Below, one piece after another: positions 556 through 36,394 of a DNA stretch of 36,444 nucleotides (the stretch's first letter is position 1; every line of letters begins with the position of its first letter). Made by a program: the position numbers and the translations under genes. Where the stretch lies: positions 1 through 36,444 of the IMG/VR virus record IMGVR_UViG_3300048580_000754. The stretch is one strand, 5' to 3'. The notes beneath the pieces were generated by a model that made no database searches, had not been told where the DNA came from, and saw only the letters and a program-made list of their open reading frames with translations. The DNA is from a virus (Duplodnaviria; Caudoviricetes).

Positions 556-878
556 ACCTCCCCACCCTTCGCGCCTTCGCGCCTTCGCTGTTTGCCCTCC
601 TCCTGCTCGGCTGCGTAACCAGCTCGCGCAAGCTCAGCGACATTTCGACCGGCATGAGCAAGGCCGAAGTCATCCAAATCCTTGGGCGGCCCAAGAGCAC
701 CAGCGCGCACGACGGCTGCGAACTGCTGCGCTACCAGCTCAGCGGCCGCTACGCGCCGCCACTCAACCCCAATCATCCCATGTTTGCCGATGGCTACACC
801 GTTCAACTCTGCGCCGGAAAGGTTGTTGCATTCGGTCGCGACGACGAATTCCAGGCGGTCCGCGTCAAAATGGAGTGA
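552..878 (+). CDS. Lipoprotein with SmpA/OmlA(BamE)-like domain
   Basis: ATGA overlap with the repressor stop; lipobox LLGC; ISTGMSKAEVIQILGRP motif. Confidence 0.7.
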   Translation: MNLPTLRAFAPSLFALLLLGCVTSSRKLSDISTGMSKAEVIQILGRPKSTSAHDGCELLRYQLSGRYAPPLNPNHPMFADGYTVQLCAGKVVAFGRDDEFQAVRVKME

Positions 879-917
879 CGGCGCCCTTCGTGCTTTCCTG
901 CCTTCCAAATTTGTCTA

Positions 918-946
918 TTGACATTCAAGACGCCACGCGCTAAACC
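918..946 (+). promoter_or_regulatory. Putative sigma70 promoter
   Basis: TTGACA-17 nt-TAAACC in the intergenic space before the early small genes. Confidence 0.4.
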
Positions 947-1022
947 TACCCACGAAACGGCCGCCGACAGTGCTAGAACACCGCCGACGGCCTGAACAAA
1001 ACCAGTGAAAGAACCACAAGTT

Positions 1023-1493
1023 ATGTCTCGCCAAATCCTCGCCACTCCCGCCGCCCCGCGCAACGAATTCTGGGGCCCGGCCATCTCCGTTTACACCCGC
1101 GCCCAAGCCATCGCCGACGGCGTGCTCGTGGATGTCACCGATTCCCCCGAGTTCCGGGAATCCGGCATCAAATTCCCGGTCTGCCTCACCATGGGCGCCT
1201 TCGAGGCCACCATCAGCACCGGCGGCGAATGGGTGGACGACGGCACCGGCACCGGCGAGCAGGTCCTGAGTCTGCCCGGCGGGCAGAGTTTCGCCGGCCG
1301 CCTCTGGGATGTTCTCTATCTGTTCAAGCGGGCGGCCAAAGCCGCACGGCCCGGCGAGGATTGCGTCTGGTTCGTGCTGAGCGTGGACGCCAAGGGCGAC
1401 GGCAAGCACGAGATCATCAAGCTCTGGGCCCGCATCGGCCCCGGCGACACCGCCGCGCCCGTTATCACCATCATGTTGACCAGCGAAGACTAA
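1023..1493 (+). CDS. DUF6573-like mobile-element protein
   Basis: YTRAQAIADGVLVDVT, GRLWDVL and GPGD...PVITIM..ED motifs; alternative GTG start at 1005. Confidence 0.7.
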   Translation: MSRQILATPAAPRNEFWGPAISVYTRAQAIADGVLVDVTDSPEFRESGIKFPVCLTMGAFEATISTGGEWVDDGTGTGEQVLSLPGGQSFAGRLWDVLYLFKRAAKAARPGEDCVWFVLSVDAKGDGKHEIIKLWARIGPGDTAAPVITIMLTSED

Positions 1494-1512
1494 CACCCAG
1501 CCACCGCACAAC

Positions 1513-1731
1513 ATGAATACGCCCTCCATCATCCGCGCCGGCGAACTGATCGCCGAACTCGATCCGGCCCTTGCCCAGCTCTGGCTGCGGCAACCGTTCC
1601 AGCGCCACAACATCGTCAGCGCGTTTCACCGCTCGCTTAGCGGCTCGCGTTACGCCGCTCTGGCCGACGAAATCGCTGTCAATCTGCGCAGCGCAATCGA
1701 CAGCACCACTCCCGCGCCCGCCATCGCTTGA
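1513..1731 (+). CDS. Hypothetical protein (72 aa)
   Basis: ATG after an A/C-rich leader; codon usage like neighbouring genes. Confidence 0.6.
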   Translation: MNTPSIIRAGELIAELDPALAQLWLRQPFQRHNIVSAFHRSLSGSRYAALADEIAVNLRSAIDSTTPAPAIA

Positions 1732-1962: not shown

Positions 1963-1963
1963 C

Positions 1964-2170: not shown

Positions 2171-2370
2171 TCACCTTCTACCGCCACACCCGTCTCGCCG
2201 CCGCCATGGGCGTGGATCCCGCCACCCACGCCCTACACGCGCACGAATGGCAACGCATGGCCGCCGGCCTCGACCCGCTGCCCGACTGGGCCGACACCCG
2301 CGAGGCCCGCCGCAAAGCCTTGATTCACCTGCGACTGGCCAAGCGGTTTCAGCGGTCCCGCCTTTCCTGA
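2167..2370 (+). CDS. Hypothetical protein (67 aa)
   Basis: ATGA overlap with the upstream gene; directly precedes the integrase. Confidence 0.55.
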   Translation: MITFYRHTRLAAAMGVDPATHALHAHEWQRMAAGLDPLPDWADTREARRKALIHLRLAKRFQRSRLS

Positions 2371-2397
2371 TTTCCTGCCTTCCAAATTCTCCCCGCC

Positions 2398-3915
2398 ATG
2401 AAGATTCCCGCCTACCCCGGCCACGGCTGGGAAATCACCGCCCGCACCGAGCCCCCCGAAGCGCGCCCGCTCAAGGTCGCCTTCGCCAAACACCGCGCCG
2501 GATTGCTGGATGGAGCGCTTCGCAAACACCCCGGCGCCGGGCCCGATTCGGCCGCGCCCTGGTATCTGCGCACCCCCACCAGTTGGCGCCGCGTGTCGCC
2601 CCTCGACGGCCCGCCCGTGTGGACGCCCGACGGCATTGTGGCCGCCATCCGCAACGCCCTCGACCACCTCACCGCCACCAGCCAGGAGCGCGACCCCTTC
2701 GCCCGCGCCCGGGCCCGCGTCGCCTACCGGGCCAACCTCACCCTCGCCAAACTGTCCGCCGATTGGCTTGAACTGGGAATGCCCGGCCTCGACCCCGACA
2801 GCGACGGCGCCGCCTTCGCCCCGCGTTCACCCGCCGCCCGCGCCGCCCTCCTGCCATTCCTCGAAACCGCCTTGAAATGGTGGGGCAGCCACGATCCCGC
2901 CGCCGTCACCCAACGCACCATGCGCGACTACCACGCCAGCCGCTGCGCCCAGGTCGCCGCCGGGGCCCGCTCGGGGCAGGGGAAGGGCAGCCGCGCCGTG
3001 GACCTCGAACTAAACGCCCTCGCCCAGCTCTGCCGCTGGGCCGTGGCCGACGAACGCCTCGGCCACAACCCGTTTGCCCAGCGCCCCCGCTTCCGCTCCT
3101 CGAAGTCCATCGTCCACTGCCACGCCAAGCAGCCCGACACCGACGAGGAACTTCACCAGCTTGCCCGCCATCTGTTCGGCCGGCCCGCCGCCATCGTCAG
3201 TGGCGCCCGGCTCCTGTTTGCGGCGATGACCGGATTGCGACCCGGCGAACACGGCTTCCTGCAATGGAACGCGCAGGGCCCCAGCCCGAAACACCGGGCC
3301 CCCGGCGAACAATTCACCGACGCCAACGGCCGCCGGCTGCTGGCCGTGCAACGGGAGAAACACGGCATCAACCCCGGCGTGGAGATCCACGCGACGCTCG
3401 GCGACTTCCTCGACGTGTGGCGCGTGTTCACCCTGGAGCGCTTTGGCGCCGGCTGCCCGTGGATGTTCCCGAACAACGCCGGCACCGGCCCGTGCGACAG
3501 CGACACCCTCAGCCGCGACCTGCTCACCGCTTGCGCCGCGCTGGGCTTGCCCCCGCGCACCGGCCACGCCGCCCGCGCCTACTACGTCAGCGTGCGCCGC
3601 AGTCAGGGCCTGAACGACAGCGACATCGCCAGCCACCTCGGCCATCGGTCCGGCGAGAAGATCGTTGTCCGCATCTACGGCGACCCCGGCGACATCCGCG
3701 GCACCGGCCGCCTCGACTGGCTCCCCGCCGACGGCACCGCCCCCGCCTGGGAACTCCTGCGCCCGGCCGCCGCGTCCAACCTGGTCGCCTTCGCCCCCGC
3801 TGCTGATACGCTACAAGATACGTCCGACCGTATCACCAACCGTCCGCCAGAGTTCACCAAAGTTCACACCGACCCCGCCGCGATACGGTCAAACGTATCA
3901 GCCGGCACCCCCTGA
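2398..3915 (+). CDS. int: Tyrosine recombinase / phage integrase
   Basis: Catalytic set TGLRPGE (R), REKHG (K), HAAR (HxxR), LGH, RIYG (Y); adjacent to a tRNA-derived att site. Confidence 0.92.
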   Translation: MKIPAYPGHGWEITARTEPPEARPLKVAFAKHRAGLLDGALRKHPGAGPDSAAPWYLRTPTSWRRVSPLDGPPVWTPDGIVAAIRNALDHLTATSQERDPFARARARVAYRANLTLAKLSADWLELGMPGLDPDSDGAAFAPRSPAARAALLPFLETALKWWGSHDPAAVTQRTMRDYHASRCAQVAAGARSGQGKGSRAVDLELNALAQLCRWAVADERLGHNPFAQRPRFRSSKSIVHCHAKQPDTDEELHQLARHLFGRPAAIVSGARLLFAAMTGLRPGEHGFLQWNAQGPSPKHRAPGEQFTDANGRRLLAVQREKHGINPGVEIHATLGDFLDVWRVFTLERFGAGCPWMFPNNAGTGPCDSDTLSRDLLTACAALGLPPRTGHAARAYYVSVRRSQGLNDSDIASHLGHRSGEKIVVRIYGDPGDIRGTGRLDWLPADGTAPAWELLRPAAASNLVAFAPAADTLQDTSDRITNRPPEFTKVHTDPAAIRSNVSAGTP

Positions 3916-3962: not shown

Positions 3963-4020
3963 TGGCGGAAGGGGAGGGATTCGAACCCCCGGATGGGTTA
4001 CCCCATCTCCTGATTTCGAG
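3963..4020 (-). tRNA. 3' half of tRNA-Ser(CGA), the att core; not a complete tRNA
   Basis: Minus strand reads CTCGAAA anticodon loop, long variable arm, GGTTCGAATCC T-arm, acceptor strand ending CCA; the 5' half is absent. Confidence 0.85.
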
Positions 4021-4108
4021 GCTGGCGCGGTGGCGTTGTAATTGCCTGCACCGCAGGGCGAGCCTAGGCCACCTTCGGCCGTGATACGTGGCAAGATACG
4101 TTAACAGA

Positions 4109-7100: not shown

Positions 7101-10100
7101 GCATCGGCAATGCCGCGGGCCACGTCCACGATGGCCGACAGGCGGGCCTCGATCTTGGCCACGGTAGTGAAGCCCGGCACCAGCCGCTCCATGGTCACCA
7201 CCATGCGCTTGCTCGGCACGGCCGTGGCGGTGCCCGCCGGCAACGCGGGCAGGCCAAACTGTCCTTGAGCTTCGAGCGGGGAACCGGCGGCGCCGCCTTT
7301 CGCTTCCCCGACAGTATCTTCATTGATCCGCTCCCGCCCACCGATCAGCTCGGCCATCTTCGCTGAACCGCCAGCCTTCTCAATGTTGGCCTCAGCCTTG
7401 GCAATTGCTCCGGCTCGCGTCTTGGCGTAGGTGTCACCCGGCCGCTGCCCGGTTGTGTATTCGTAGACCGCCCACGTTTTGCCATCGGCCGCCACCACAT
7501 ATTGGTGCGCCGGATCTGCTGGCAACGTCACCATTTGCCCGGACCGCTTCACCGCCGGATTGCCTGAAATTCGAGCCGGAATCAGGAAGTCCACCTTGCC
7601 ACCCAACACCGGCTTGGACGGCCGGGCAGGTTCCGTTTGTGCAACTACACCTTCCTTCGGCGGCGCATTTAGTGCGGGCGGCGGTTCTGCTGGCGCCGCC
7701 ACAGGAGGCGGCTCCGGCGGCAGACTATTCCTCAATCGGACGGCCGCCTCGGCCAACAGCTCACGCTGTTTAGGTTCGATCTCCAGCTCCATGTCTTCAG
7801 CCTGCCGCTGCAACACGTCGGCCGCCCGGCGGTCGCCATATACCTTGCGGGCATCCTCAATGACGCGGACCACATCCATCTTGGCCGCCCGCGCCACGGG
7901 CGCCTTGCCCGAAACGGACGCCCCCGTTTCCAACCGCTTGGCCCGGCCCAGCAACTGGCCCAACTGTTCCTTGGTGTTCCAGACGGTCAACGTGCCATCC
8001 CCGGGAATCTCGATGGTGACCTTCTGCCTCGGGTTGTCGGTGTCCTGCATTGTCGGCGCCGCCTCCACCGCCTTCCCTAGCTCACCGATCAGCTTGGCCT
8101 TGGCGTCCTTGGCATCGGTCACCAGCGGCTTGCCCTTGCCAGCCCGGCCGCGCTTCACCACCTCACTGACAAACCGCAGGTTATCCATGCCGCCCTGCAT
8201 GGCCGGCGCCGCCGCGGCGGGAGCCTGCGCCGGCTCAGTCGGCTCTGCCGGTCGCACCTCGGCCGGCTTGGTCATGGATTCCGCGGCCGGCACAGCGGGA
8301 GCTTCAGCACTCGCCACACCCGCGGCGCGGCGCAACACCTCAGCTTCGGCAAATCCGCCATGCGTGAAGGCGAATTGACCGCCCACCGGGTCGAACTTGA
8401 TGGCCTTGGCCTTGCGATACTCGGCCAGCGCCGTGGTTGCCTGCTCTTGCGTCAGTCCGGCCGTTTGCATGGCAAACTCCAGGAACCGATCCTCGGCGTT
8501 GACCATGCGTTGCGCGACCGACCGGGTGCCGGGCAATGTCTCCGGCGTCTGCTGTTTCACCCGCCGCCCCATGCCCACCCCGTCGATGCCTTCCGCCGGC
8601 ACGTTCTCGCCCACCCCTTGGTCGGTCGCAAACGGGTCGAGCGGGCGCCCCGGCTCCGCATTCGGAATTCGGAACTCGCCCCTCGGCACTGCCGCGGCGC
8701 GGCCGGGCGGCTGTTCCTTTGGCAACGTCCGGGCCCGGCGAACCAATTCCGGCGGCAGCACAAATTCACTGCGCGGCTGAAGGCTGTGCTTGCGCGCCCC
8801 CGGCACATTCACAACCCGGTAGGCTTCCAAGTCCGCCTCGGGCACATCGACATAAATGATCCGCCCATCGGGATCGTGGGCGGCTCTGGCGTAGGGCTTG
8901 GCCACGTCCGGGTCGGGCGTGAACCAGCGCCCCCGGAATTCGGGCGGCTCAAACGTGGCCCGATCAATTTCACCGGAACGCCCCCACGACGGCGGCCCGG
9001 GTTTGGTTTCTCCGCGGTAGAGTCGAACCATCTTTGGCGCCTCAAACCCCGGCCCGACCTCCCCCAGCGGCGCCTCGCGGCGGAACAGCGGCCCGTCTCC
9101 CTGCTCCCCGCTCCCTGCTTCGGGCCGCGTGGCGGCCAGCGCAATCTCGTCCGCGCTCTGGCGCAGGGCCTCGATCACCTCGGGGTGGTTGGCGGCATCG
9201 CGCAGGGCCACGGCCACGTGCTCGGCCGGGCTCAGCCTGGCCTGCGTCTCGCTCGGCAGGGACCGCCGGAAACCCGGCACGTCGAGCGCCAGAAAGGCGG
9301 TGTTGGCCACGAGGTTGCGCAGGATGGCTTCCTTGCGCTCCTGCGGCGGAAGGGCCGCGTATTCCGGCAGGCGCAAGCCTTCCATGAACACCTGCACGGC
9401 ACCCTGCGAGCCGAGCACTTCCACCGCCTTCTGCGTGGCCGTGGCCTGGGGCGACATGAGCCCGCGCTGGATCAGTTGCCGGTTCACGCCCACGGCCAGC
9501 GACTTGCCCGCCTGGGCGACGGCCGGAATCGCGGCGCCCATCACGCCGGCCTGGAACGCGGCCTGCGGATCACCCGTCTCGCCGTAGGTCTGCGCGGCCA
9601 TGGGCCCGCCGAACGCGGCCATGGGCGGCACACCGTAGGCCGACAACGCCATGCTGGCGCCGAGCACGGGAGCGGACCGGCCCACGTCCTGCAAACCTTG
9701 GGCGACGGGCCCGGCGGGGTCGAGGGAAGTCAGGCCGGTGACCTTGCGCACGTCCTCGGCCAGCAGATTGCCGGCGGTGGAGAACACCTTACCGGCCTCG
9801 CGCAGCGGTTGGCGCAGCATGAGGCTGGCGGCCTCGGGAACGGCGGCGGCCCACTCGGCGGCGGTGCCCCCGGTGAGCGGCTGGATCACCTCGCGGTCCA
9901 CGGCGCGGGCGGCGTCAAACCCCACCTCGTGCGCGGCGTTGATCACCCCCTCCAACTGGCCGGAGAACCCGGACCGGGCGGCGGTGTCTTGGTTGTTGGC
10001 CTGCATCTGGCCGAACGCCTCGAAGTTGGCGGCGAACTTAGCGTCGCGCTCCAGGTAGGCCGGGAACTTGGTGCCAATGGCGAGGGTCAGCTTGTCGTCG

Positions 10101-10162: not shown

Positions 10163-11101
10163 TCAGTTGAACAGTCCGAGGGGGTCGTTGACCGCGCCGG
10201 CCGCGGTGGGGGCGGCGGCCGGTGCAGTGCCGTTCAGCAGGCCGTCCAGTTCCTCCGTCAGTTTCTGGCGGCGGGGCAGGTTGGATTCAACCTTGAGCTG
10301 GGCGAGGATGGCATTCACCCGCGTCTTGGGATCCACGCCCTTGGCCGGAGTGCGGACCAACTGCATGCCGTTGCGCCCGGGAATCGCCTGCCCGATCACG
10401 TTGCCCTCGCTGTCGGTCACCGCCACGGCCTGCGCCTGCTGCTTGGCCGGGTTGGTGCCGGTGGGAATCAGGCTGTTGCCAAACGTGGCGACGCGCGCCC
10501 CGGTCACGGGATCTTCCTGGAAGGCCAGCTCGGCCCCCGCATTCCCCCGCTGCCCCATCTGTTCCGCCCGGAGCAGTTGCGCAAGCGATGTGGGTTCGAG
10601 CGTGAGCCCGCTTTGGCCGGCGGCCTGCACGATGTCGGCGAGGCCCACGTCGCGGGCGGGTTGCGGTTCGCCGGCCAGCGTGTTGGCGAAGTCCATGCTC
10701 GGTCCGCCGCCGGTGCCCATGAGGCTGGCGAGCGATTGGGTAAAGCGTTGCCCCGCGGCGTCGCGTTCGTTGGCCCGGTTCATCTGGCCCTGTTGCAGGT
10801 CGGCATACACCTTCGACAGGTTATATTCCCGGTCCTTGTTCGACTGGTCCTGTGCCAGCTTGTCCTTGGCCGCCTTCATGCCGATGCCGGCCACGTAGCC
10901 TTCGAGGTCGGCGAGGCCCATGGTCTGCACCTCGTCCTTCAGCTCGGGGTTGTAGATGCCGATGGTCTTCCGCAGCGACGACGCCTTCTGCGACTGCTGC
11001 TTGCGTTGCTTCACGGCGTCGGCGAGAGAATCGGCGGCGCCGGTGATGCCGCGGAACAGGAATTCCCCGGTGCGATTGGTAACGGTGGGCTGGTAGGGCA
11101 T
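10163..11101 (-). CDS. Putative internal virion (ejection) protein
   Basis: Q/A/G-rich helical protein immediately upstream of the large ejection protein. Confidence 0.6.
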   Translation of the reverse strand: MPYQPTVTNRTGEFLFRGITGAADSLADAVKQRKQQSQKASSLRKTIGIYNPELKDEVQTMGLADLEGYVAGIGMKAAKDKLAQDQSNKDREYNLSKVYADLQQGQMNRANERDAAGQRFTQSLASLMGTGGGPSMDFANTLAGEPQPARDVGLADIVQAAGQSGLTLEPTSLAQLLRAEQMGQRGNAGAELAFQEDPVTGARVATFGNSLIPTGTNPAKQQAQAVAVTDSEGNVIGQAIPGRNGMQLVRTPAKGVDPKTRVNAILAQLKVESNLPRRQKLTEELDGLLNGTAPAAAPTAAGAVNDPLGLFN

Positions 11102-11103
11102 GG

Positions 11104-11523
11104 TCAGGCAGCGGTGGGGGTCAACTGGTCACGGGCGACGATGGGCCACAGGTCGGCGGCGATGGCCTGCATGTGGATCCAGCCGCCGCAAAGGAAGGCG
11201 ACGGCCAGCGGCATCAGGTTGCCGCTCAGCCGCAGGGTGTTGGCCAGCGGACCCGTGGGGGCGATGACGCTGGTGGAGTAAAGGCTGGCGATCAGCGCAT
11301 GCACGGTGGCGAGCGCCATGTGATTGGCCCGCCAGAATTCGCAGTTGGTGAGCACGGCCACCTCCATGCAGCGGTCCACGGCGTTCACGCGATGCCGGCC
11401 GGGCTCGTCAATGTCGTCGTCCACCTGGTGCGCGTGCGCGTGGAAGGCCATGAGGAACAGGAACGCATCGTCCCGGTTCAGCGCGGCCCGGCGGTAGAGG
11501 TTAAAGAGTGGCGGCACGTTCAT
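11104..11523 (-). CDS. Helical protein with DDxxD motif (isoprenoid-synthase-like)
   Basis: HQVDDDIDE motif; ATGA coupling at 11520-11523. Confidence 0.55.
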   Translation of the reverse strand: MNVPPLFNLYRRAALNRDDAFLFLMAFHAHAHQVDDDIDEPGRHRVNAVDRCMEVAVLTNCEFWRANHMALATVHALIASLYSTSVIAPTGPLANTLRLSGNLMPLAVAFLCGGWIHMQAIAADLWPIVARDQLTPTAA

Positions 11524-11966
11524 GGCAGCAACGAACAGCGAAGGCGCGAAGGCGCGAAAAGGCTTTTGCCATCCTCCGTTCCTGCTTTCCTGCCTTCCAA
11601 ATTGTCCTCTCCGATTTCCCGCAGTTCCAAATCCGTGGCGGCGCTGGTCATGGGCACGCCGGGCAGCCACCGCTCGAAGTTGGCGAACAGGCCGAACCAG
11701 CCGAACGTCATCGCGGCGTGGGCGCAGTGCGGGGCCACCTCGAAGGCGCGGCCGATGTGGCGCCACGTCATCAGCTTGCCGGGCTGCTGGTCGCGCCACC
11801 ACGCCATGCGCCCGCCCAGGAAGATCAGCGTGCTGCGGATGTGCGGGTGGACATGGCGGGGAATGAAGGCATGGCGCGGCGCCAGCCAAAGTTCCAACTG
11901 GCGACCCCGGCCCAGCGGCAGCGTGAGCCCGTAGCACCCGAAGCGGCGTTGGAAGAAGCGTTTCAC
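11520..11966 (-). CDS. Cupin-fold protein
   Basis: IPRHVHPH...FEVAPHCAHAA cupin motifs; GTGA-coupled start; C-terminus built from B and A repeats. Confidence 0.6.
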   Translation of the reverse strand: MKRFFQRRFGCYGLTLPLGRGRQLELWLAPRHAFIPRHVHPHIRSTLIFLGGRMAWWRDQQPGKLMTWRHIGRAFEVAPHCAHAAMTFGWFGLFANFERWLPGVPMTSAATDLELREIGEDNLEGRKAGTEDGKSLFAPSRLRCSLLP

Positions 11967-12277
11967 AACGAGGACAGGAGGCTGCTCTTGCCGGCGCTCT
12001 TGGCCGCGGCGCCGAGCGCGGCGGAATCCTTGGCCTTGAAGCCCAGCGCCTGCCGGACCGAATCGCGGGCGTCGTCGCGGAACTGCTCCCGGCGTTCGGC
12101 CAGGCCCCGGCGAAACTCGGTGCCGCGCATGAGCAGGCTGTCGTCGGCCACGCCCAGTTCCTGCATGCGCTCCATGCGTTTCACCCAATCCTCCTCGGAC
12201 ATGGGCTTGGTCATGCTGCCGGCGCCGGGCTGGATTCCCCGCGGCATCGGGGTGGCGTTGTAGTTGTTCATGGTCAC
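11963..12277 (-). CDS. Hypothetical virion-module protein
   Basis: Overlaps both neighbours by 4 nt; within the ejection-gene cluster. Confidence 0.55.
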   Translation of the reverse strand: MTMNNYNATPMPRGIQPGAGSMTKPMSEEDWVKRMERMQELGVADDSLLMRGTEFRRGLAERREQFRDDARDSVRQALGFKAKDSAALGAAAKSAGKSSLLSSL

Positions 12278-13128
12278 AGGGCTGAGCCCGCGGCGGAAAT
12301 GCCGGCGCCCGCGAGCGCGGCTGAATTGTTGGCGCTGGACACGGCGGCGTCGCGCTGGCTGTTGGCGTTCCAGTCGAGGATGTTCGAGGCCCCGCCGTAG
12401 ATGCTGCCGGTGGTGCCCTGCGCGTTCTGGTTGCCCATGCCCAGCAGGCCCATGCCCGCATTGGCGCCGCTCGCCCGGCCGGTCACCAGTTGGAACGGGT
12501 CGCCGCTCGTGGCTTGGTTCAGCCCGGCAATGCCCGTGGCGCGCTGGAAGTTGTTCTGGAAGTAGCGTTCCCCCGCGTCGCTGGTGGCGAGGGCTTCCAT
12601 GATGGCGTCGTTGGCGCCAAAGCCAAAGCCGCGCCCGGCCTGCGCGCTGCGGAGGTTCTGCTCCACCTGCCGCTGGATGCCCGGCGGAAGCTGCCGGCCG
12701 GCGCTGATGCCCTCCAGGGCGCTCGCGTTGAGCGCCTGCATGAGGGCCTGCTGCTCGGGATTGGCAGCGCGGAATGCCTGCACGGCGCCGGGCCCCAGTC
12801 GCGTCACGTCGGCAATGTCCTGCTCGCGCTGCGCGGTCGAGGCTTCTCGATCCGCCCGGGCGGCGGTCGGGCTGGCGTCCTCGAAGTAGATGTCGAGCAG
12901 GCCGCGGGTGCCGTCGTCGGGCGAGCCCAGCAGTGTCTGCTCCAGTTGCCGGCGGTTGATGGCGCCCAGTCGCGGCGAATACTTCTCGGTGGCGGCCAGC
13001 GAAGCCTCCGTCTCGGCGGCCACGTCGCGGGCCTGGATGTCGGGCGACATGTCGAACCGCGTGCCGGCGGGTGCCCGGAGTCGCCAGACATGGCCGGCGG
13101 CAAACTCTTGGTTGAGGAAGTCCTTCAT
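12274..13128 (-). CDS. Small ejection/DNA-transfer protein (P22 gp7 / T7 gp14 position)
   Basis: A/Q/G/N-rich with hydrophobic Gly/Ala C-terminus; first gene of the ejection cluster. Confidence 0.6.
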   Translation of the reverse strand: MKDFLNQEFAAGHVWRLRAPAGTRFDMSPDIQARDVAAETEASLAATEKYSPRLGAINRRQLEQTLLGSPDDGTRGLLDIYFEDASPTAARADREASTAQREQDIADVTRLGPGAVQAFRAANPEQQALMQALNASALEGISAGRQLPPGIQRQVEQNLRSAQAGRGFGFGANDAIMEALATSDAGERYFQNNFQRATGIAGLNQATSGDPFQLVTGRASGANAGMGLLGMGNQNAQGTTGSIYGGASNILDWNANSQRDAAVSSANNSAALAGAGISAAGSAL

Positions 13129-13153
13129 CTTCGTTGTCTCCGTTCCCTTCTGT

Positions 13154-13309
13154 TCAGTCCGTAACCGCCACCAACAAACTCTCGTGCAGGTAAAGCGTCG
13201 TGCCGTCGGTCGTGCGCCGGCAGATCCACACGCGGCCGGGCAGGGGGGACTCCGGCACCACGAGGTGCAGGTCGCCTTGGCGGTCGCGGTAAACGTGGGT
13301 AGGGGTCAT
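13154..13309 (-). CDS. Small hypothetical protein (51 aa)
   Basis: ATGA-coupled; C-terminal part of the ORF-track entry 13154..13885. Confidence 0.5.
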   Translation of the reverse strand: MTPTHVYRDRQGDLHLVVPESPLPGRVWICRRTTDGTTLYLHESLLVAVTD

Positions 13310-13713
13310 GCGAAACAAAGTTGGTCGGCCGTGGGCTGGTTGGCGCGATGCCCGCACAGCCGGGCGAGGCGTTCCACGTATTCGAGGGAGTAGAGTTTGC
13401 GGCGGCCGGGATGGCTGAGGTTCGTCTTGCGTTCCGAGCACGGCACGCGGTCGGCCAGCAATTCCTCCACCCACGGATATTGCCGGCGGAACTCCAGCAC
13501 CAGCAGGCCCGTGGCGTCGGCATCCACGGCCATCACGTTGGCCACGTAGAGCGTGCCATCCTCCTGGAACCAGCCGATGCCGAGCGCCTGTCCCGGCAAC
13601 CAGATGCACCGGACATGCCGCTGCGTGAGGTAACGCCGCAGCGTGTCCTCGGGCGCCGCCTTGAGCTTGGGCGTGCCGTGCTCGCGGATGAACTGGAGAA
13701 GGTCGGAGTTCAT
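13306..13713 (-). CDS. Possible GNAT-like tail assembly protein (P22 gp14 / T7 gp13 position)
   Basis: ATGA-coupled; GTLYVANVMA strand-helix pattern; position between tail and ejection genes. Confidence 0.45.
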   Translation of the reverse strand: MNSDLLQFIREHGTPKLKAAPEDTLRRYLTQRHVRCIWLPGQALGIGWFQEDGTLYVANVMAVDADATGLLVLEFRRQYPWVEELLADRVPCSERKTNLSHPGRRKLYSLEYVERLARLCGHRANQPTADQLCFA

Positions 13714-15128: not shown

Positions 15129-15237
15129 GCGCCTGTCGAGGATTCAGGCGCGGGAGCTGGCGGCCCCTGCTACATTGGCGGGCATAAATTAGGCCGGGTC
15201 ACCGCCCGTGGCAAGTGCGAACCGGCCGGGGAAGGGG

Positions 15238-16259: not shown

Positions 16260-17164
16260 GCCTTCGTTTCCTCCTTCGCGCCTTCGCGCCTTCGCTGTTC
16301 CATCTGCCGCTGCTCCCTGAGCACCCGGATCAAGCTCCCGTCCTTGTTGCGATGGAACACCACCGCCTCCTTGGGAATCCGCCGCAGGTCGTCCACCGTG
16401 TGGAACGTGGGCGGATGATCGAGCCGGCCAAACTCTTGGTGAAACAGCGCGGTGGCGTGCGCCTGCGGAGTCAGCACGTCCGCCATGGCGATGTCCCACG
16501 CGGTCCCCATCTGGTCGGCGCGGAAATGGTGGAACACGCTGTGATGATACGCCGCGTTGCCGGTCAGGTGCCGCGGGTAGTCATTGGTCGCCGGCTCGAT
16601 GAAGCCCATGTAGGGCCGGCCGCACGCGGCATACTCGGCGCGGATCGCCTCGAACCAGCCGGGCTTGAGCGGGATGCAGTCGGGTTCGTTGAACCAGAAG
16701 TCCCGGTGGTGGCAGCGGCAATGCTCGGCTGCGGCCAAGAAACTCCAGTTGGCACCCGTCGGCCACCCTTCCCTAGGGAGGTCGAAAGGCGTAAACACAA
16801 CGTCGTAGGTCGCAAAGGCGGCGCTAGTCATGTGTGCCACTTCGTCGGCCAACTCCTGCGAGCCCGGCACTACCAGAACCGCCTTGGCCGGCACTTGGCC
16901 CAGCTCGGCAATCCACCCCAGCAACTGCCGGAACCGGTGTTCATCCGCCGCACAGAAGGGCAGCACACACACAAACTCCCGCCCCGGCGTGAACTCCACC
17001 TTGGCCGTCGAGTGCTTCAGTTGCCGGCGCAGGTCGTCCCGCTCGCGGAGCAGGCGGTTGACCACTTCGCTGGGTTGCGCTTGGGGAGGTCCTTGAACTA
17101 GGGGCGGTCCCAACTCCACCCGTTCCGATTTGCGTCGTCCGAAGACACGCGACAAAAGATTCAT
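16256..17164 (-). CDS. Putative GT-A glycosyltransferase
   Basis: GWPTGAN, FWFNEPDCIPL, HLTGNAAY, WD and FHRNK motifs; N-terminal coiled coil. Confidence 0.6.
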   Translation of the reverse strand: MNLLSRVFGRRKSERVELGPPLVQGPPQAQPSEVVNRLLRERDDLRRQLKHSTAKVEFTPGREFVCVLPFCAADEHRFRQLLGWIAELGQVPAKAVLVVPGSQELADEVAHMTSAAFATYDVVFTPFDLPREGWPTGANWSFLAAAEHCRCHHRDFWFNEPDCIPLKPGWFEAIRAEYAACGRPYMGFIEPATNDYPRHLTGNAAYHHSVFHHFRADQMGTAWDIAMADVLTPQAHATALFHQEFGRLDHPPTFHTVDDLRRIPKEAVVFHRNKDGSLIRVLREQRQMEQRRREGAKEETKA

Positions 17165-17254
17165 GCGAGCCAATGTAGATTGGCTCAGGAGTGGATGCGC
17201 GGACAGTGCCACCGCGCCCATCCACTATCAACTCAAATCTCCCTCCACCGCCCG

Positions 17255-18998: not shown

Positions 18999-19070
18999 AA
19001 CAGCGAAGGCGCGAAGGCGCGAAGACAGGGAAACCGTGTTCAATCTTCGCGTCTTTGCGCCTTCGCTGTT
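18999..19070. repeat. Empty inverted pair of A repeats (hairpin)
   Basis: 18999-19024 and 19045-19070, 20-nt spacer. Confidence 0.85.
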
Positions 19071-19073
19071 CAT

Positions 19074-20375: not shown

Positions 20376-20376
20376 T

Positions 20377-21512: not shown

Positions 21513-21619
21513 CGCATGGCGGGTGGGTTATACGTGGGCGGTGTCTTACATCCGCACGCGAGTCCACACAGCAAAACCATCAGCAGGAGTGACCAAGCCC
21601 GTCTGGGGTTCAAACGCAT
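21509..21619 (-). CDS. Possible 36-aa lipoprotein overlapping the protease gene end
   Basis: MRLNPRRAWSLLLMVLLCGLACG-C; its stop overlaps the next ATG (ATGA). Confidence 0.4.
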   Translation of the reverse strand: MRLNPRRAWSLLLMVLLCGLACGCKTPPTYNPPAMR

Positions 21620-21944
21620 AGAGTATTTCATCGGAGCACAGGCAGAGGTTGAGAACATGCGCGGAGCGATCCTGCAAACAGGACGCTTCGCCAAAAGTGT
21701 GGCCGGCATCGCGCAAGCCGGCCTTGACCAAGGCCAGGTCCGCTTCGTGCGCGGCCCAGCGGGCAAACTGCTCGCAGTCGAATGTTTCCGGGATAAACTC
21801 CAGTTTCTTGCCAGCGAGATAGCTCCCGAACTCAACAAGCCATTCCCGCGACGGCGCGGCATATGCCGAATCCATGAGCACGATGTCGCGCACGCCAATG
21901 GCGCGCAGCTTCGTATAGATCAGTTCGATGGAAACAGCTTTCAT
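21546..21944 (-). CDS. Papain/transglutaminase-like cysteine protease (agglutinin C-terminal-like)
   Basis: FDCEQFA, HVLN and FEPQ give a Cys-His-Glu triad; ATG 1 nt after the tailspike stop. Confidence 0.65.
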   Translation of the reverse strand: MKAVSIELIYTKLRAIGVRDIVLMDSAYAAPSREWLVEFGSYLAGKKLEFIPETFDCEQFARWAAHEADLALVKAGLRDAGHTFGEASCLQDRSAHVLNLCLCSDEILYAFEPQTGLVTPADGFAVWTRVRM

Positions 21945-21945
21945 C

Positions 21946-26430: not shown

Positions 26431-26540
26431 AACAGCGAAGGCGCGAAGGCGCGAAGCAGGGAAGCGGACAGGTTCTTTCCTGCTTTCCAGCTTTCCAGAT
26501 TGCTCCGTCGGCCCTTTGCGTCCTTCGCGGCTTCGCTGTT
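26431..26540. repeat. Inverted A pair enclosing one B repeat
   Basis: A 26431-26456, B 26477-26501, inverted A variant 26514-26540. Confidence 0.8.
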
Positions 26541-29616: not shown

Positions 29617-29646
29617 CTTCGCCACCCTTCGCCACCCTTCGCCACC
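29617..29646. repeat. Tandem 10-mer CTTCGCCACC x3
   Basis: Three exact copies just after the stop at 29652. Confidence 0.85.
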
Positions 29647-32145: not shown

Positions 32146-32222
32146 AACAGCGAAGGCGCGAAGGCGCGAAGCGGGGAACGTCATGGCTTTGCCTTCCTTC
32201 GCGTCTTCGCGTCTTCGCTGTT
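32146..32222. repeat. Empty inverted pair of A repeats (hairpin)
   Basis: 32146-32171 and 32197-32222, 25-nt spacer. Confidence 0.85.
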
Positions 32223-32474: not shown

Positions 32475-33011
32475 TCACAAAACTACCAACCGCCCCGGAA
32501 GGCCGCTTGCCCGGATTGCCATTACATTCTCTGCCCCAAAAGCTATAAGGCAGCTTGGCGCCGGACTTGTGTTTCCGGGCTCGCCGGTGACGTGGTAAAA
32601 GGTAAGCCGGCCTTTGAAGAAGAAGACTGCGGTGGCCGCCTGCCATACGTAATCGTGAAACATGCGGGTCTCTGTGCGAGCAAAGGTAAGTGCGATTGCG
32701 TTTCCGTGGTCGTGACACCGCGCCAACCATTTGCAGGTCTCGTCGCCATACGGCGGATTGCACCAAACCCGGCCCTCCCACGGCTTCAACAACCCGTTGT
32801 CCTCGAAAGTGTAATGGCGGGCGGCCATTTCCCAGGGGCGAACCCGCGGTGCGCACGGGTCCAAATCAAATGATCCCAGCGCGCGGATTATTCCTGGCGG
32901 AGTAAGCCATTCATCCTTGCCTCGCTCCACCCGCTCAAAGTGGCCAAAGCCACCAATCTCCGGTGCCGCGTCAATCTGGCCGTTCAAAAGAAACTGCTGC
33001 CCTGTGCTCAT
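32475..33011 (-). CDS. Phage DNA N6-adenine methyltransferase (phage Dam family)
   Basis: DEWLTPP, FDLDPCA, VWCNPPY, ARTET and GRLTF motifs. Confidence 0.9.
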   Translation of the reverse strand: MSTGQQFLLNGQIDAAPEIGGFGHFERVERGKDEWLTPPGIIRALGSFDLDPCAPRVRPWEMAARHYTFEDNGLLKPWEGRVWCNPPYGDETCKWLARCHDHGNAIALTFARTETRMFHDYVWQAATAVFFFKGRLTFYHVTGEPGNTSPAPSCLIAFGAENVMAIRASGLPGRLVVL

Positions 33012-33038: not shown

Positions 33039-34940
33039 TCAATAAGCGTAACCCGCCTTCGCCCGGAACATCCCCGGCGTGACATGCACCAGCTCGTCGT
33101 CCTGCGCCACGTAACGCACGAGGTCCGCCGGGTCCTTGCACGCGCCGTCCTCGCCGCCGCGCCCGGTGAAATTCTCGAACATCCACATCACCTGCTGCGC
33201 CGCGTCGCTCACGCAGAGCCTCGGTTCATTCACCACCGCGCACAGCGGCTGCTGCTCGTCGAAACTCAGCAGGTCATGCACGGCCGTCACGCCGTTGTCA
33301 TCGCCCCGGCCCGTGTAGGCGGGAATCAGGTCCACGCCCTCATGCACCTGGCCGCGCTCCTCCTGCTTCGCCGCGAACAGCTCGATCAGGTTCGTGCCGC
33401 CCTTCTCGGCCGCCTGCGGATTCATCGCCGCCCGCGGGTCAATCTTCCGCAGTTGGATCGGATACCGCACCACCACCCCCCGCTTCCGCACCTCCGCAAC
33501 TTCCTCCCGTCCCCACTTCATTCTGCCTTCTTCCTTCTTCATTCCGCCTTTGGCCATGGCCTCGTCCAACAACCGCCTCGCCATCGGGTCCTGCGCCTTC
33601 CATTCCCCGTCCGCGCCCAGCTCCAACGGAATCGTCTCCAGCTCCTTCAGCAGCCGTTTGTAGCGGGTCACGCCATAGCCCAGGTTCATCTGCGCCGGGC
33701 CCGCGTCGCCATCCCAGCCGTGCCGGGAATCCTGCGTCACCTTGCGTTCCGTCGGCACCGCCCACTCGCCGTAGGTCTGGCAGTCGGGCCAATCCTTCCA
33801 GATGAACAGCCGGCGCGGATTGCCCGGCGCCACGCGCACGTAGAGCAGGAACCAGTTGCGCGCCCCGGCCGGGTCGATGAACAGGTAGTTCGTCCCCTCC
33901 GCCGGCAGCTCGCGCTCGCGCACGACATGCACGTTGCGGTTGAACGTCGGGAACTGGAGCCCCATCACGTCCTTGGTGAACCCGTAGAAGATTCGCAGCA
34001 CGTAATCCCGCGGCTTGCCCTCAACCGCCCGCGCCACCTGCTGCCCGTAGGTCTCGCCGCCGCTGCCGAACACCGTCATGTCCGAGTGGAAGTAAACCAC
34101 CCGCGTGCGCTGGATGGCCCCGGCCTGCACCAGCGGCACGCGCCCCGGCCGGCACCCTTCGACCAGCACTTGGTTCTGCGGCAGGATCTTCGCCACCTTC
34201 GTCCGCAGAATCTTGCCCGTGCCCACCGCCTCCTTGATCGCCGGCGTGATGCCGTTGATCGGCGTGAAGCTCCACACGCCGTAGCCGGGCCGATACTCAC
34301 CGCGCCGCCGCAGCATGGTCAGCCACGGGATCGGCGCGTTCTCGTCGAGCCACCACGCCACGCCGTAACCCTCGCGGGCGCCGAACTCGAACCCCTCGAA
34401 CTCCGCCGGGTCGCCGCGATACGTGGCGAACAGCAGCTTCACCCCGCTCGGCAGCACCAGGATGCGGTCGGCGAACCCGTTCTTCGGATCGTAACCGATG
34501 CTGAACACGCGCCGCGGATCGCGCCGGCCGTTCAACGCCTTCAGGTCCGGCGGCAGGAAACGCCACACCAGTTGCTGCGCCGTCTCGATGCTGCTCCGCT
34601 CCGTCTCCGACCCCACGAGGAACCGGGCATCGCTGCCCGCGTCCTGCGACAGCATTTCCAGCACCAGATGATAGGCGCAGTAGAACGACTTGCCCGACCG
34701 ATTGCCCCCGAGCAACACCAGCAACTTGGGCCGATACCGCCGCACCACGCGCCGCGTGAGCTTCCACGACTTCATGGGCGGCAGGAACTGGAGCGGGTCC
34801 CGTTCCGCGTCCGCAATCGCCTGCCGGCGCCGGCTCAGGAAATCGCCCAGCCCCCGCTCCCCGTGATTCCGCAAGATCGCCCGCGCCTGCCGCTCCGTCG
34901 GCAACGCAAACAGCGGATGTTGTGGCTCCTGCTCAAACAT
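33039..34940 (-). CDS. terL: Terminase large subunit
   Basis: Walker A GGNRSGKS, Walker B WWLDE, coupling motif FTP, nuclease FIDPAG and KDPADLVRY. Confidence 0.92.
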   Translation of the reverse strand: MFEQEPQHPLFALPTERQARAILRNHGERGLGDFLSRRRQAIADAERDPLQFLPPMKSWKLTRRVVRRYRPKLLVLLGGNRSGKSFYCAYHLVLEMLSQDAGSDARFLVGSETERSSIETAQQLVWRFLPPDLKALNGRRDPRRVFSIGYDPKNGFADRILVLPSGVKLLFATYRGDPAEFEGFEFGAREGYGVAWWLDENAPIPWLTMLRRRGEYRPGYGVWSFTPINGITPAIKEAVGTGKILRTKVAKILPQNQVLVEGCRPGRVPLVQAGAIQRTRVVYFHSDMTVFGSGGETYGQQVARAVEGKPRDYVLRIFYGFTKDVMGLQFPTFNRNVHVVRERELPAEGTNYLFIDPAGARNWFLLYVRVAPGNPRRLFIWKDWPDCQTYGEWAVPTERKVTQDSRHGWDGDAGPAQMNLGYGVTRYKRLLKELETIPLELGADGEWKAQDPMARRLLDEAMAKGGMKKEEGRMKWGREEVAEVRKRGVVVRYPIQLRKIDPRAAMNPQAAEKGGTNLIELFAAKQEERGQVHEGVDLIPAYTGRGDDNGVTAVHDLLSFDEQQPLCAVVNEPRLCVSDAAQQVMWMFENFTGRGGEDGACKDPADLVRYVAQDDELVHVTPGMFRAKAGYAY

Positions 34941-34994
34941 GGTCAGGCAAATCGGGATGGAACAGCGGAGGCGCAAAGGCGCGAAGCGGGAACG

Positions 34995-35246
34995 TCACAG
35001 CTTGGCATGGTCCCATTCTTCAATCGCAACCACGTCTTCGGTGAATACGGATTCACGAAGGCGGAAGGCAATTTCATCCCCCGCCTCCACCAGCCGGCGG
35101 ATGCGCTTGTTGGCCGCGGCCAGATCGATTTCGAGTTGATCGGCGTGGTCCAGTGCCAGCTTCAATCCGTCTCCCGGATTCATGAAGTCTCCAATAGCGA
35201 TGGTTTGACGGATTCCATTCGTCCTCGGTGTTGGTGTGTCGCTCAT
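34995..35246 (-). CDS. Small hypothetical protein (cassette cargo)
   Basis: MSDTPTPRT start; shares LEIDLAAANKRIRRL with 35464..35703. Confidence 0.65.
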   Translation of the reverse strand: MSDTPTPRTNGIRQTIAIGDFMNPGDGLKLALDHADQLEIDLAAANKRIRRLVEAGDEIAFRLRESVFTEDVVAIEEWDHAKL

Positions 35247-35467
35247 TTCAACCTCCGTTCCGCGTCTTCGATCATCGCAACCAACTGTTTCGCGTTATCA
35301 AATGCCCAACGCTCGGTTTTGATCGTGAAGTATTTTCCAGCGCCTCCGTCGTGAGATTCGATTTCGATGTATTGGCCAATCGTGCTGTCGTCGCAGCAGT
35401 CGTTTTCCTGCCCATAGGTCAGTTGCCCGGCTTCCATGACCGGCTCTTTTTTTGGTGTGTCGCTCAT
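35243..35467 (-). CDS. Small hypothetical protein (74 aa, cassette cargo)
   Basis: ATGA-coupled on both sides; low GC. Confidence 0.65.
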   Translation of the reverse strand: MSDTPKKEPVMEAGQLTYGQENDCCDDSTIGQYIEIESHDGGAGKYFTIKTERWAFDNAKQLVAMIEDAERRLK

Positions 35468-35703
35468 GCTTTTGCCTCCTTGGCTTTGGTCCATTGGTGA
35501 GTTTGTAACGTCGGGTGGTGAAATTGCTGGAATAACGCATCCCCCGCCTCCTCCAGCCGGCGGATGCGCTTGTTGGCCGCGGCCAGATCGATTTCGAGTT
35601 TGCAGTAGGAGCAAAGCAGGCTGGGCGACTCAACGCGCCGCACGGAACAACCATTGCACCAATACACCCATTCACTTCGCGTCTTAACGTCTTCGCTGTT
35701 CAT
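35464..35703 (-). CDS. Small Cys-containing protein (79 aa), possible Zn ribbon
   Basis: CNGC...CSYC; N-terminus MNSEDVKTRS encoded by an A repeat. Confidence 0.6.
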   Translation of the reverse strand: MNSEDVKTRSEWVYWCNGCSVRRVESPSLLCSYCKLEIDLAAANKRIRRLEEAGDALFQQFHHPTLQTHQWTKAKEAKA

Positions 35704-36098
35704 TTGGTTTTCCTTTGCTTTGCCGTCTCCGCGTCTCCGCGTCTTCCCCTCTCCGCGTCTCCGACCACCCGTTCCCATTCCCTTAGCCAATGCAGGCACG
35801 CCGAGGGGTTGGCGATCTGCCGTTGCCAGCAGACCAGATCCAGCATGGCCTCGCGTTCCAGTTCCGCCGACGGCCCGGCCGACCACGCCGCGTGATACTG
35901 CGTGGTGCGATCCGCGACCCACCGCTCAATCGTGGCGTCGGTCTGGCGCCACACCCAATTGGCCACCAGCGCGGCGTCGCCGTTGCGCCACGGGGCGGGT
36001 CCGTTCCGCGCCGGCCACGCCGCCGTCGCCTCCGCCGTGGGCACCGTCCCCCACCGCTGCTTGGGCACCTCCGTCTCAGGGTTCACACTCATGGGCAT
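35700..36098 (-). CDS. Hypothetical protein (about 130 aa)
   Basis: In the operon; C-terminus encoded by GGAGACGC-type 8-mers. Confidence 0.55.
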   Translation of the reverse strand: MPMSVNPETEVPKQRWGTVPTAEATAAWPARNGPAPWRNGDAALVANWVWRQTDATIERWVADRTTQYHAAWSAGPSAELEREAMLDLVCWQRQIANPSACLHWLREWERVVGDAERGRRGDAETAKQRKTK

Positions 36099-36394
36099 TT
36101 GAATCTGGAAGGCAGGAAATCAGGAAGCGGCTCCACCAAGACCACCCGCAGCTTGAGCGGGCGCAAGTCCGGGCGTTCAAACCGTTGTTGCGCCTTCGTG
36201 TTGTAAAACGCCCACCGGACCGAAGGGGGATGCGGCAGGTCTAGGCTCCTGTATGCCTCGATGCGGCCTGGGTCAAAATCAGCCCAGATGAATTTAGGTG
36301 GTTTCACGTCTTCGTTTCCCCTGTTTGCTTCTGTTCCTGCCTTCCTGTTTTCCAGATTCATCTTCGTTCCCTCCGTTCCCTTCTGTTCCGTCAC
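36089..36394 (-). CDS. Hypothetical protein bracketed by inverted B repeats
   Basis: GTGA-coupled start (alternatives at 36361 or later); both termini repeat-derived. Confidence 0.55.
   Translation of the reverse strand: MTEQKGTEGTKMNLENRKAGTEANRGNEDVKPPKFIWADFDPGRIEAYRSLDLPHPPSVRWAFYNTKAQQRFERPDLRPLKLRVVLVEPLPDFLPSRFKCP

What the first reader, a model, noticed from the sequence alone, without database searches (positions are those of the whole stretch)
567..36387. Family of periodic 25-26-bp repeats marking gene junctions: a candidate gene-cassette system
Seen: repeat A (AACAGCGAAGGCGCGAAGGCGCGAAG, 8-nt period) at 567, 11534, 15240, 15575, 16274, 18999, 19045, 26431, 26514, 32146, 32197, 34961 and 35675. 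Repeat B (AAT[C/T]TGGAAGGCAGGAAAGCAGGAA, 9-nt period) at 887, 2364, 11579, 15266, 15547, 26477, 33015, 36102 and 36334. Repeat C (AACAGAAGGGAACGGAG..AACGAAG) at 13129, 36310 and 36362. All begin AAC/AAT, have about three purine-rich periods and lie at or near gene boundaries. Closely spaced inverted pairs keep the AA end outward. Pairs are empty (18999-19070, 32146-32222), nested (26431-26540) or loaded with 1-3 accessory genes. Inference: a REPIN/MITE-like, non-autonomous system that inserts or exchanges cargo in the phage operon. No transposase is visible here, so the catalyst would be host-encoded, outside the window, or the phage recombination machinery.
Basis: partly seen in the sequence, partly recalled or inferred. 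Interest (0 to 1): 0.88.

Follow-up and report, generated by a model that had tools for sequence, protein, structure and literature searches.

The report
Host hairpin arms swap phage genes
A lake phage that likely infects Verrucomicrobiota carries, at a third of its gene junctions, short periodic repeats shared with those bacteria; close relatives gain, lose and swap accessory genes right at these repeats, likely by recombination within them that a small host nuclease may start.

Summary
All 25 repeats are real (0 in 10 shuffles); B has an 8-nt, not 9-nt, period. They are arms of hairpin cassettes of Verrucomicrobiota chromosomes, about 20-80 times denser in this temperate phage than in two candidate-host genomes. 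A second phage group and a host site show the same, and a queC-like cargo sits behind B arms in both phage groups. The phage encodes no driver. In the host, A, B and C arms flank GxxExxY (PD-(D/E)XK) genes (12 of 18 loci), not RAYT-type genes (0 of 11); arm type follows nuclease clade. Unrelated arm families replace each other at the same site, which homology alone does not explain. Catalysis is untested. The scan noted this cassette family before on other DNA; the phage allele series is what is added. Not found in print (10 searches). It works like PeSL linkers plus REPINs and is a member of neither.

The parts
567..592 (-). A arm (8-nt period), in frame in the 5' end of a small lipoprotein-like gene 552-878; gene and arm are absent in L007
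887..911 (-). B arm after the lipoprotein-like gene
2364..2388 (-). B arm before the integrase; L007 has two other genes and B, C, A arms here
2398..3915 (+). Tyrosine integrase-like gene (lysogeny; not shown to act on the arms)
   Evidence: phrog_1 E 8e-16; no NCBIfam hit
3963..4028 (-). attP-like copy of the 3' 66 nt of host tRNA-Ser(CGA), 95% to G002, G003, G535, G536
9090..9116 (-). Heptamer arm (family E) in frame inside the 2016-aa LPD38 gene
   Evidence: 6 mismatches, shuffle mean 0.2; family flanks host TIGR02436 genes
11534..11603 (.). Mixed pair: A 11534-11559 (+) and B 11579-11603 (-); L006 holds a 136-nt piece of another phage gene (82% to a segment in L159) inside it
13129..13154 (-). 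C arm (9-nt period) filling the whole spacer between a TGA and the next ATG; absent in L012
15240..15600 (.). Nested cassette A 15240-15265, B 15266-15290, cargo gene 15305-15535 (-), B 15547-15571, A 15575-15600; L006 has an empty B pair instead
16274..16299 (-). A arm; L006 adds an 84-aa ORF behind it; the distant L125 has a B arm plus an FkbM methyltransferase here
18999..19070 (.). Empty A pair (hairpin z -6.8 coding strand); L012 has an empty B pair, shared with group-2 phages at the end of the common module 19072-22374
26431..26540 (.). A pair 26431-26456 / 26515-26540 holding one B arm 26477-26501; no arms at this junction in L121 or prophage L290
32146..32222 (.). Empty A pair, unchanged in the close relatives examined
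32475..33011 (-). Cargo: Dam-like methyltransferase behind the B arm; absent in L009, L021, L028, L031; another gene in L036
33015..33039 (-). B arm overlapping the terminase stop; heptamer arm instead in prophage L290
33518..33543 (-). Heptamer arm (family F) in frame in a terminase loop; L036 and L290 carry two other heptamer families at the same codons
34961..35700 (.). Loaded A pair 34961-34986 / 35675-35700 with three small genes; ORF 35464-35703 starts inside the arm and is absent in L008, L021, L031; part of the cargo is 99% shared with group-2 phages
35727..35752 (-). Fourth 8-nt family (D) arm in frame in the 3' end of gene 35700-36098
36102..36387 (.). Site with arms B 36102-36126 (+), C 36310-36335, B 36334-36358, C 36362-36387 (-) and cargo about 36127-36309; four alleles among close relatives (window, L008, L021/L031, empty L118/L138)

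Best explanation
The repeats are arms of hairpin cassettes shared with Verrucomicrobiota chromosomes, and in this phage they sit at gene junctions where relatives differ in accessory genes right at the arm's inner edge, likely because a break in or at the hairpin, probably made by a host GxxExxY nuclease acting in trans, is repaired from another arm-bearing DNA with the crossover inside the shared arm. Step 1 (inferred): while the phage is a prophage or replicates in a host that carries GxxExxY-type (8-9 nt arms) and four-helix-bundle-type (mostly 7-nt arms) cassettes, arm pairs are seeded at stop/start junctions, imprecisely and without target duplication. Step 2 (shown from sequence): the arms are tolerated because most have no stop codon in any frame, and a forward arm often begins in a TGA/ATG overlap and can lend its ATG to the cargo. 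Step 3 (pattern shown, mechanism inferred): arms stay with the flanks while the inside is replaced, flipped or emptied; donors are other sites, other phages and perhaps the host; the far end is the partner arm or a short match at the next start codon. Step 4 (pattern shown, unexplained): unrelated arm families replace each other at the same site.
For: Junction test: 12 of 15 arm junctions vs 6 of 30 others vary (Fisher p 2.2e-4; late region 7 of 10 vs 1 of 22, p 2.6e-4; spaced junctions only 11 of 14 vs 2 of 11, p 0.005); 17 of 30 breakpoints lie within 35 nt of an arm, 5.1% of the window does. Inner edge: 41 allele pairs at 11 arm ends, identity runs a median 1 nt inward and 80 or more outward. 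Four alleles at 36102-36387, three at 33015; two alleles of 35477-35675 and of 36126-36334 lie in one lake run. A second phage group, with no tblastn hit to five window core proteins, has four arm sites with 4-6 alleles each. Same cargo at different sites or in both groups: queC-like pair 88% over 1158 nt (L118, L018), L139 cargo 93.5% in L148/L156; a 51-nt spacer flipped between B arms. Host site H1: five close genomes carry four different inserts and one remnant between A arms, 12 distant ones have no element. Host link: attP-like tRNA-Ser match and a related prophage in G535. Partner: A/B/C arms at 12 of 18 GxxExxY loci vs 0 of 11 Y1 loci in five host genomes; inverted arms around 36 of 53 GxxExxY genes vs 3 of 101 controls, and the A-arm genes form one clade (100/100); confident model (pLDDT 95) with PD-(D/E)XK-type matches and invariant D79, E89, K91. 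Stop-free arms 20 of 25 vs 41% of random 26-mers.
Against: No cleavage, circle or intermediate was seen; the nuclease link is by neighbourhood only, and GxxExxY could itself be just one cargo (site H2 holds it in some genomes and other inserts in others). 4 of 15 variable events have no arm in either allele, and 3 arm junctions did not vary among close relatives. Arms and accessory genes may both gather where insertions are tolerated; the spaced-junction test reduces but does not remove this. Many relatives were fetched through the arm patterns, alleles share ancestry, and the events and inner-edge sites were listed by hand. Five of the A-clade proteins were found through their arms and four of those sit at one orthologous site. 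Crossover in shared arms cannot explain swaps between unrelated arm families. The L006 insert is a gene fragment joined by microhomology, which looks like repair, not dedicated capture. MAG assemblies may under-count arms and inflate the density ratio.
Confidence: 0.55

Rival explanations
1. Passive linkers: arms were picked up from the host once, and ordinary phage or host recombination (no dedicated nuclease) uses the 25-nt homology to shuffle modules, as proposed for PeSLs and Botstein-type linkers.
For: Explains inner-edge breakpoints, flipped spacers and cargo shared across phages with no extra enzyme; PMC2839356 (Discussion) argues T4 recombination needs under 50 bp.
Against: Does not explain how arms reach new junctions (C pair at 25740 in L290 only), nested A/B pairs in phage and host, family swaps at one site, or arm type following GxxExxY clade.
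Confidence: 0.25
2. Selfish hitchhikers: a REPIN/MITE-like host element simply lands where insertions are tolerated, and the coincidence with accessory genes reflects shared tolerance, not exchange at the arms.
For: Arms are in core-gene junctions as empty pairs and in frame in protein loops; some arm sites are invariant.
Against: Identity between alleles ends within a median 1 nt of the arm's inner edge; enrichment holds among spaced junctions; the same cargo recurs between arms at different sites.
Confidence: 0.1
3. Dedicated capture system: the nuclease (or a partner) cuts precisely at the inner edge and joins in headless ORFs under the arm's ATG, integron-like, whatever the arm family of the donor.
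For: Zero-nucleotide inner overlap in 20 of 41 allele pairs; cargo ORFs that start in the arm in phage and host; family swaps and in-frame replacement in terminase; mismatches favour pairing on the non-coding strand in phage pairs (50 vs 15).
Against: Far ends are ragged or at start codons; one insert is a gene fragment; strand bias is weak in hosts (34 vs 20, p 0.08) and phage pairs are not independent; a lone 140-aa nuclease has no joining domain.
Confidence: 0.07
4. Phage regulatory motifs (ribosome-binding, termination or RNA-processing sites) kept by selection, with cargo turnover as a side effect.
For: Arms fill stop-to-start spacers (13129-13154) and empty pairs fold strongly as RNA (z -4.6 to -6.8); IVS hairpins are cut by RNase III (PMC4990558, abstract).
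Against: No sigma-70-type promoter and no terminator-like site at the arms in 11000-20000; arms are absent or of another family at the same junctions in relatives; the coding strand folds less well than its complement.
Confidence: 0.03

Closest known systems
PeSL (promoter-early stem-loop) cassettes of T4-type phages RB49/phi1 (PMC2839356; abstract, section 13 and Discussion read)
   Same: Repeated intergenic motifs that mark where close phage relatives gain, lose and replace small ORFs; proposed exchange by recombination in the motif.
   Different: PeSLs are phage promoter plus terminator units in direct orientation and make mini-circles; these arms have no promoter match, come as inverted pairs of several periodic families, are shared with the host chromosome and with another phage group, and are tied to a host nuclease family.
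REPIN/RAYT systems (PMC3337134, first third read; PMC3116915, passages read)
   Same: Short inverted doublets with variable spacer, several sequence groups per genome each beside its own single-copy enzyme gene, insertion into or next to existing copies, non-autonomous.
   Different: Arms are periodic purine tracts, not palindromic REPs (B and C do not fold alone); the neighbouring gene is PD-(D/E)XK, not HUH/Y1; loops carry whole genes that are swapped; very dense in phages.
ORF-bearing intervening sequences of 23S rRNA (S23p/four-helix bundle; PMC4990558, abstract only)
   Same: A small ORF inside a long hairpin; TIGR02436 genes in the host clade have inverted heptamer arms of the families also seen in these phages.
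   Different: Not in rRNA; the 25 listed arms go with GxxExxY genes; no four-helix-bundle gene was looked for or noticed in the window; cargo is varied.
Integron cassettes (recalled)
   Same: Promoterless ORFs added in operon orientation at repeated foldable sites; gene-arm-gene-arm runs in L007.
   Different: No attC-type structure tested or seen; the phage integrase has no integron-integrase model hit and sits beside a tRNA-type attP.
Tandem heptamer repeats of prokaryotic intergenic DNA (PMC6344855, passages read) and cyanobacterial STRR (recalled; search listing only)
   Same: Short periodic purine/pyrimidine-skewed tracts; that paper calls their function unexplained.
   Different: Here 8- and 9-nt as well as 7-nt units, paired as inverted arms and linked to gene exchange.

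Membership tests
REPIN/RAYT | Two short repeats in inverted orientation with a spacer, folding as a hairpin | tested here: met
   Empty A pairs fold with z -5.3 to -8.9; host doublets
REPIN/RAYT | Each unit is an imperfect palindrome (REP) | tested here: not met
   B and C arms fold at 0 kcal/mol alone; A forms only a 4-bp stem
REPIN/RAYT | Repeats cluster beside a Y1/HUH (RAYT) gene | tested here: not met
   0 of 11 strong PF01797 loci in five host genomes have an A/B/C arm within 300 nt; 1 of 30 loci has any arm; 4 weak matches were not fetched
MITE | Terminal inverted repeats around a non-coding or passenger core, no own transposase | tested here: met
MITE | Target-site duplication | tested here: not met
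   No exact duplication over 1 nt beside 7 window pairs; naive/filled pairs at 65-87% identity show replaced or added spacer, too divergent to exclude a 2-nt one
MITE | Ends shared with an autonomous transposon | tested here: inconclusive
   Arms are shared with GxxExxY cassettes, which are not known transposases
PeSL | Sigma-70-like promoter in the motif | tested here: not met
   0 promoter-like sites in 11000-20000, which holds 10 arms; other promoter types not covered
PeSL | Terminator-like stem-loop in the motif | tested here: inconclusive
   Pairs fold but no T-tailed terminator at arms in 11000-20000
PeSL | ORF gain, loss and replacement between close phages map to the motif | tested here: met
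PeSL | Mini-circles | not testable with these tools
   Only assembled contigs were laid; short-sided joints there are cross-matches between arm copies
Integron | Integron integrase (IntI) with attI and attC | tested here: not met
   Window integrase has no NCBIfam hit at E 0.01 and lies by a tRNA-Ser attP-like piece; attC structure itself not modelled
23S rRNA IVS with S23p | Located in rRNA and removed by RNase III | tested here: not met
   All window copies lie between or in protein genes; RNase III action not testable
GxxExxY periodic-arm cassettes (earlier scan notes; no paper found) | Same arm sequences flank GxxExxY genes in bacteria | tested here: met
   A: L040, L060, L172, L175; B: L180, L301; C: L174, L299
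GxxExxY periodic-arm cassettes (earlier scan notes; no paper found) | The nuclease acts on its arms | not testable with these tools
   Fold and invariant acidic/lysine residues fit a PD-(D/E)XK nuclease (best Z 8.1, rmsd 2.7, 93 aligned), which shows no substrate

The most novel reading that the evidence does not exclude
A host-encoded family of small PD-(D/E)XK nucleases and their periodic hairpin arms form a general gene-capture and exchange system: it seeds swap sites into operons, lends start codons to captured ORFs, writes one arm family over another, and is used by several phage lineages of one host as a shared, plug-in accessory gene pool (methyltransferases, queC-like, Lar-like genes). 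This would be a recombinase-free counterpart of integrons and would give the unexplained 7-9 nt bacterial repeats a job.
Probability: 0.3. Interest if true: 0.92.

Novelty: new variant of a known kind. Interest (0 to 1): 0.76.

Why it matters
How phages place new genes exactly at gene boundaries is an old question; shared linker sequences were proposed decades ago and shown in few cases. Here the linkers come from the host, are shared by two phage groups and the chromosome, and have a candidate enzyme, so both the linker idea and the role of GxxExxY proteins (function unknown in PMC3424549) become testable with a 140-aa protein and 25-nt arms. The exchanged cargo includes DNA methyltransferases and queC- and Lar-like genes, the sort of genes phages use against restriction. 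It also bears on the unexplained abundance of short periodic repeats in bacterial intergenic DNA (PMC6344855).

Tried and rejected
RAYT/HUH partner: rejected. Target duplication: none seen. Promoter or terminator identity: not found. Phage-encoded GxxExxY: one viral contig unrelated to this set in a viral scan, none in the window or related loci. Metagenome scan with the terminase found no relative. Phylum-wide capsid search gave only 23-29% matches in 6 of 401 genomes; the prophage came from the family search (1 of 81). Long-range 'joints' with sides under 30 nt are other arm pairs cross-matching (the letters between some of them are the window's own 11534-11603 spacer) and were not counted. 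No RNA holder of the stretch was listed. Read-level variation for 11000-20000 was not obtained, so co-occurrence of alleles there is open. First structure model was poor (pLDDT 51) and was replaced; no PDB relative by sequence; Foldseek gave no E under 0.001 (best Cas4 SSO0001, E 0.018) and VIA Z values are middling, so no specific nuclease subfamily is claimed. Strand bias of mismatches is kept only as a lead. Left out of the event count: one equal-length divergent patch (16792-16886); near-identical events and multiple alleles of one site were counted once. Literature searches with no description of this system: (open-access library only; supplements not read).
Full report
Observation. The window is one 36,444-nt virus record with capsid, terminase, Dam-like and LPD38 genes. 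A fixed mismatch rule finds exactly these 25 and none in 10 shuffles. A and B have an 8-nt period, C 9-nt. 20 of 25 lie within 40 nt of a gene end against 4.6 expected (gene calls from my codon score, three small ones approximate). In coding orientation a purine-strand 'forward' arm follows or overlaps the upstream stop and a 'reverse' arm precedes the next start. Three further arm families lie in frame inside genes.

Host. Exact A matches occur in 75 stretches of bacterial genomes, 63 of them titled Verrucomicrobiota or a subgroup; seven titled Kapaibacterium come from a genome that the tool groups in the same family as G003 (L095 = L222). The window has an integrase-like gene followed by 66 nt that match the 3' part of tRNA-Ser(CGA) at 95% in G002, G003, G535 and G536, and G535 holds a related prophage (terminase 89% aa, 1 of 81 genomes; nucleotide blocks 72-94%). 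With the same criteria A occurs at 329 per Mb in the window and 4.2-5.8 in G002/G003, B at 247 against 8-12; B was not found in G001, G004, G005. So the likely host clade carries the same arm set, and the phage is about 20-80 times denser, with the caveat that these are incomplete assemblies.

Relatives. Loci came from arm-pattern scans and protein scans. From relatives of about 90% identity or more I listed 15 gain, loss or replacement events. Ten have a window arm within 35 nt of a breakpoint, one more brings its own arm, four have none. By junction, 12 of 15 with arms vary against 6 of 30 without (p 2.2e-4); 7 of 10 against 1 of 22 in the late region; 11 of 14 against 2 of 11 among junctions with 15 nt or more of spacer. 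The site 36102-36387 has four alleles including an empty one; the Dam-like gene behind B 33015 is present, absent or replaced; the nested 15240-15600 cassette is an empty B pair in L006; the empty A pair at 18999 is an empty B pair in L012. Two alleles of two sites lie in one lake run. At 11 arm ends chosen because cargo differs, 41 allele pairs stay alike for a median of 80 or more nt outward and 1 nt inward.

Replication elsewhere. A second phage group, with no tblastn hit to the window's capsid, terminase, portal-like, LPD38 or integrase proteins in 20 loci, has four arm sites with 4-6 alleles each; it also shows arm-free events (three in L010 vs L015). It shares with the window lineage the module 19072-22374, whose end is the arm pair, a 351-nt piece of arm-bounded cargo at 99%, and a queC-like gene pair at 88% over 1158 nt behind B arms at unrelated sites. 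L138 is a mosaic of the two groups that switches inside arm-bounded cargo. One cargo sits between B arms at two different sites and one spacer is flipped. In host chromosomes, site H1 has four different inserts and a remnant between the same A arms in five close genomes and no element in 12 distant ones; the three intact inserts translated start in the arm, as does window ORF 35464-35703.

Partner gene. Host A pairs enclose GxxExxY genes (PF13366, TIGR04256). Of 53 such genes 36 have inverted arms against 3 of 101 control windows; A-arm genes fall in one clade (100/100, 8 rows, one with a related arm), the two B genes group weakly (92/75), and other clades carry other arm types. In five host-clade genomes 12 of 18 GxxExxY loci (one borderline) and 0 of 11 strong Y1 loci carry A, B or C arms. 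TIGR02436 four-helix-bundle genes have 7-nt-periodic flanks on both sides in 15 of 24 loci (3 of 46 control windows), including the families found in frame in the terminase of the window, L036 and L290. The GxxExxY model is confident (pLDDT 95) and matches restriction-like nucleases only at middling scores. No GxxExxY gene was found in these phages. Its function is listed as unknown in PMC3424549 (table row read).

Mechanism. Shown: host origin of the arms, their position, translation-friendly build (20 of 25 stop-free in six frames against 41% of random 26-mers), and cargo change at the inner edge. Inferred: exchange by crossover within shared arms, which predicts exactly an outside that stays, an inside that changes, flips and shared cargo. 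Inferred more weakly: a host GxxExxY nuclease makes the starting break and seeds new sites; support is neighbourhood and clade-arm matching only. Unexplained: unrelated families replace one another at one site (A/B at 18999 and 16274; heptamer pairs in L290 and group 2; three heptamer types in one terminase loop), which points beyond simple homology. Against a dedicated machine: ragged far ends, single-arm events, a captured gene fragment, arm-free events, no target duplication, and no intermediate seen.

Comparison and novelty. It works like PeSL linkers (PMC2839356) and is built like REPINs (PMC3337134, PMC3116915) but fails defining tests of both. Ten searches of the open-access library found no description; subscription papers and supplements were not seen. 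Integron, STRR and linker-model details beyond the cited passages are recalled. Earlier notes of this scan describe the GxxExxY and four-helix-bundle cassettes on other DNA; I had recalled the GxxExxY link before the look-up and tested it here. What this window adds is a phage saturated with the arms, allele series in two phage groups and a host site, shared cargo across them, and a host assignment.

Noticed in passing
window 33500-33550; L036, L121, L290: One terminase loop holds different in-frame tracts of nearly equal length: three distinct host heptamer families (window, L036, L290) and an unclear one in L121.
   Followed up: partly
phage arm pairs (28 distinct) and host pairs (29): Arm mismatches give A-C on the coding strand and G-T on the other (50 vs 15 in phages, 34 vs 20 in hosts), so the non-coding strand folds better; pairs are not independent.
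   Followed up: partly
L030 14705-15574, L021, L031, L118 (outside the window, same phage lineage): Behind one B arm relatives carry a Dcm methyltransferase, other methyltransferase-like genes or a queC-like pair.
   Followed up: partly
L021 5673-6521 and L031 1279-2230: The Dcm-like gene is overlapped almost end to end by a second long open frame (272 and 315 aa) on the same strand.
   Followed up: no
window 34995-35703: Small genes starting MSDTP and a 63-nt direct repeat (35075-35137, 35538-35600) shuffle among themselves and with group-2 phages without arms at the breakpoints.
   Followed up: partly
window 65-555 and 552-878: Divergent ribbon-helix-helix gene pair followed by a small lipoprotein-like gene (weak BamE match), a likely immunity region; the lipoprotein gene is missing in L007.
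   Followed up: no
window 29617-29646: Perfect 10-nt tandem repeat (three copies) between two late genes, different in L290.
   Followed up: no
window 20855-21139 and 22289-24310: In-gene domain swaps in tail-related genes among close relatives, far from any arm.
   Followed up: no
L030 (IMGVR_UViG_3300042507_006529): A 43.9-kb relative shows that about 6.5 kb (helicase-like, methyltransferase and other genes) lies between the window's end and start, so the window is an incomplete circular genome.
   Followed up: partly
L095/L222 (G536): Record title says Kapaibacterium, but the genome groups with Verrucomicrobiota and is 93-95% like G003 at two loci.
   Followed up: no
L258, L264, L265, L276 (host site H2): Decayed GxxExxY cassettes with internal deletions persist at the same junction as intact ones.
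   Followed up: no
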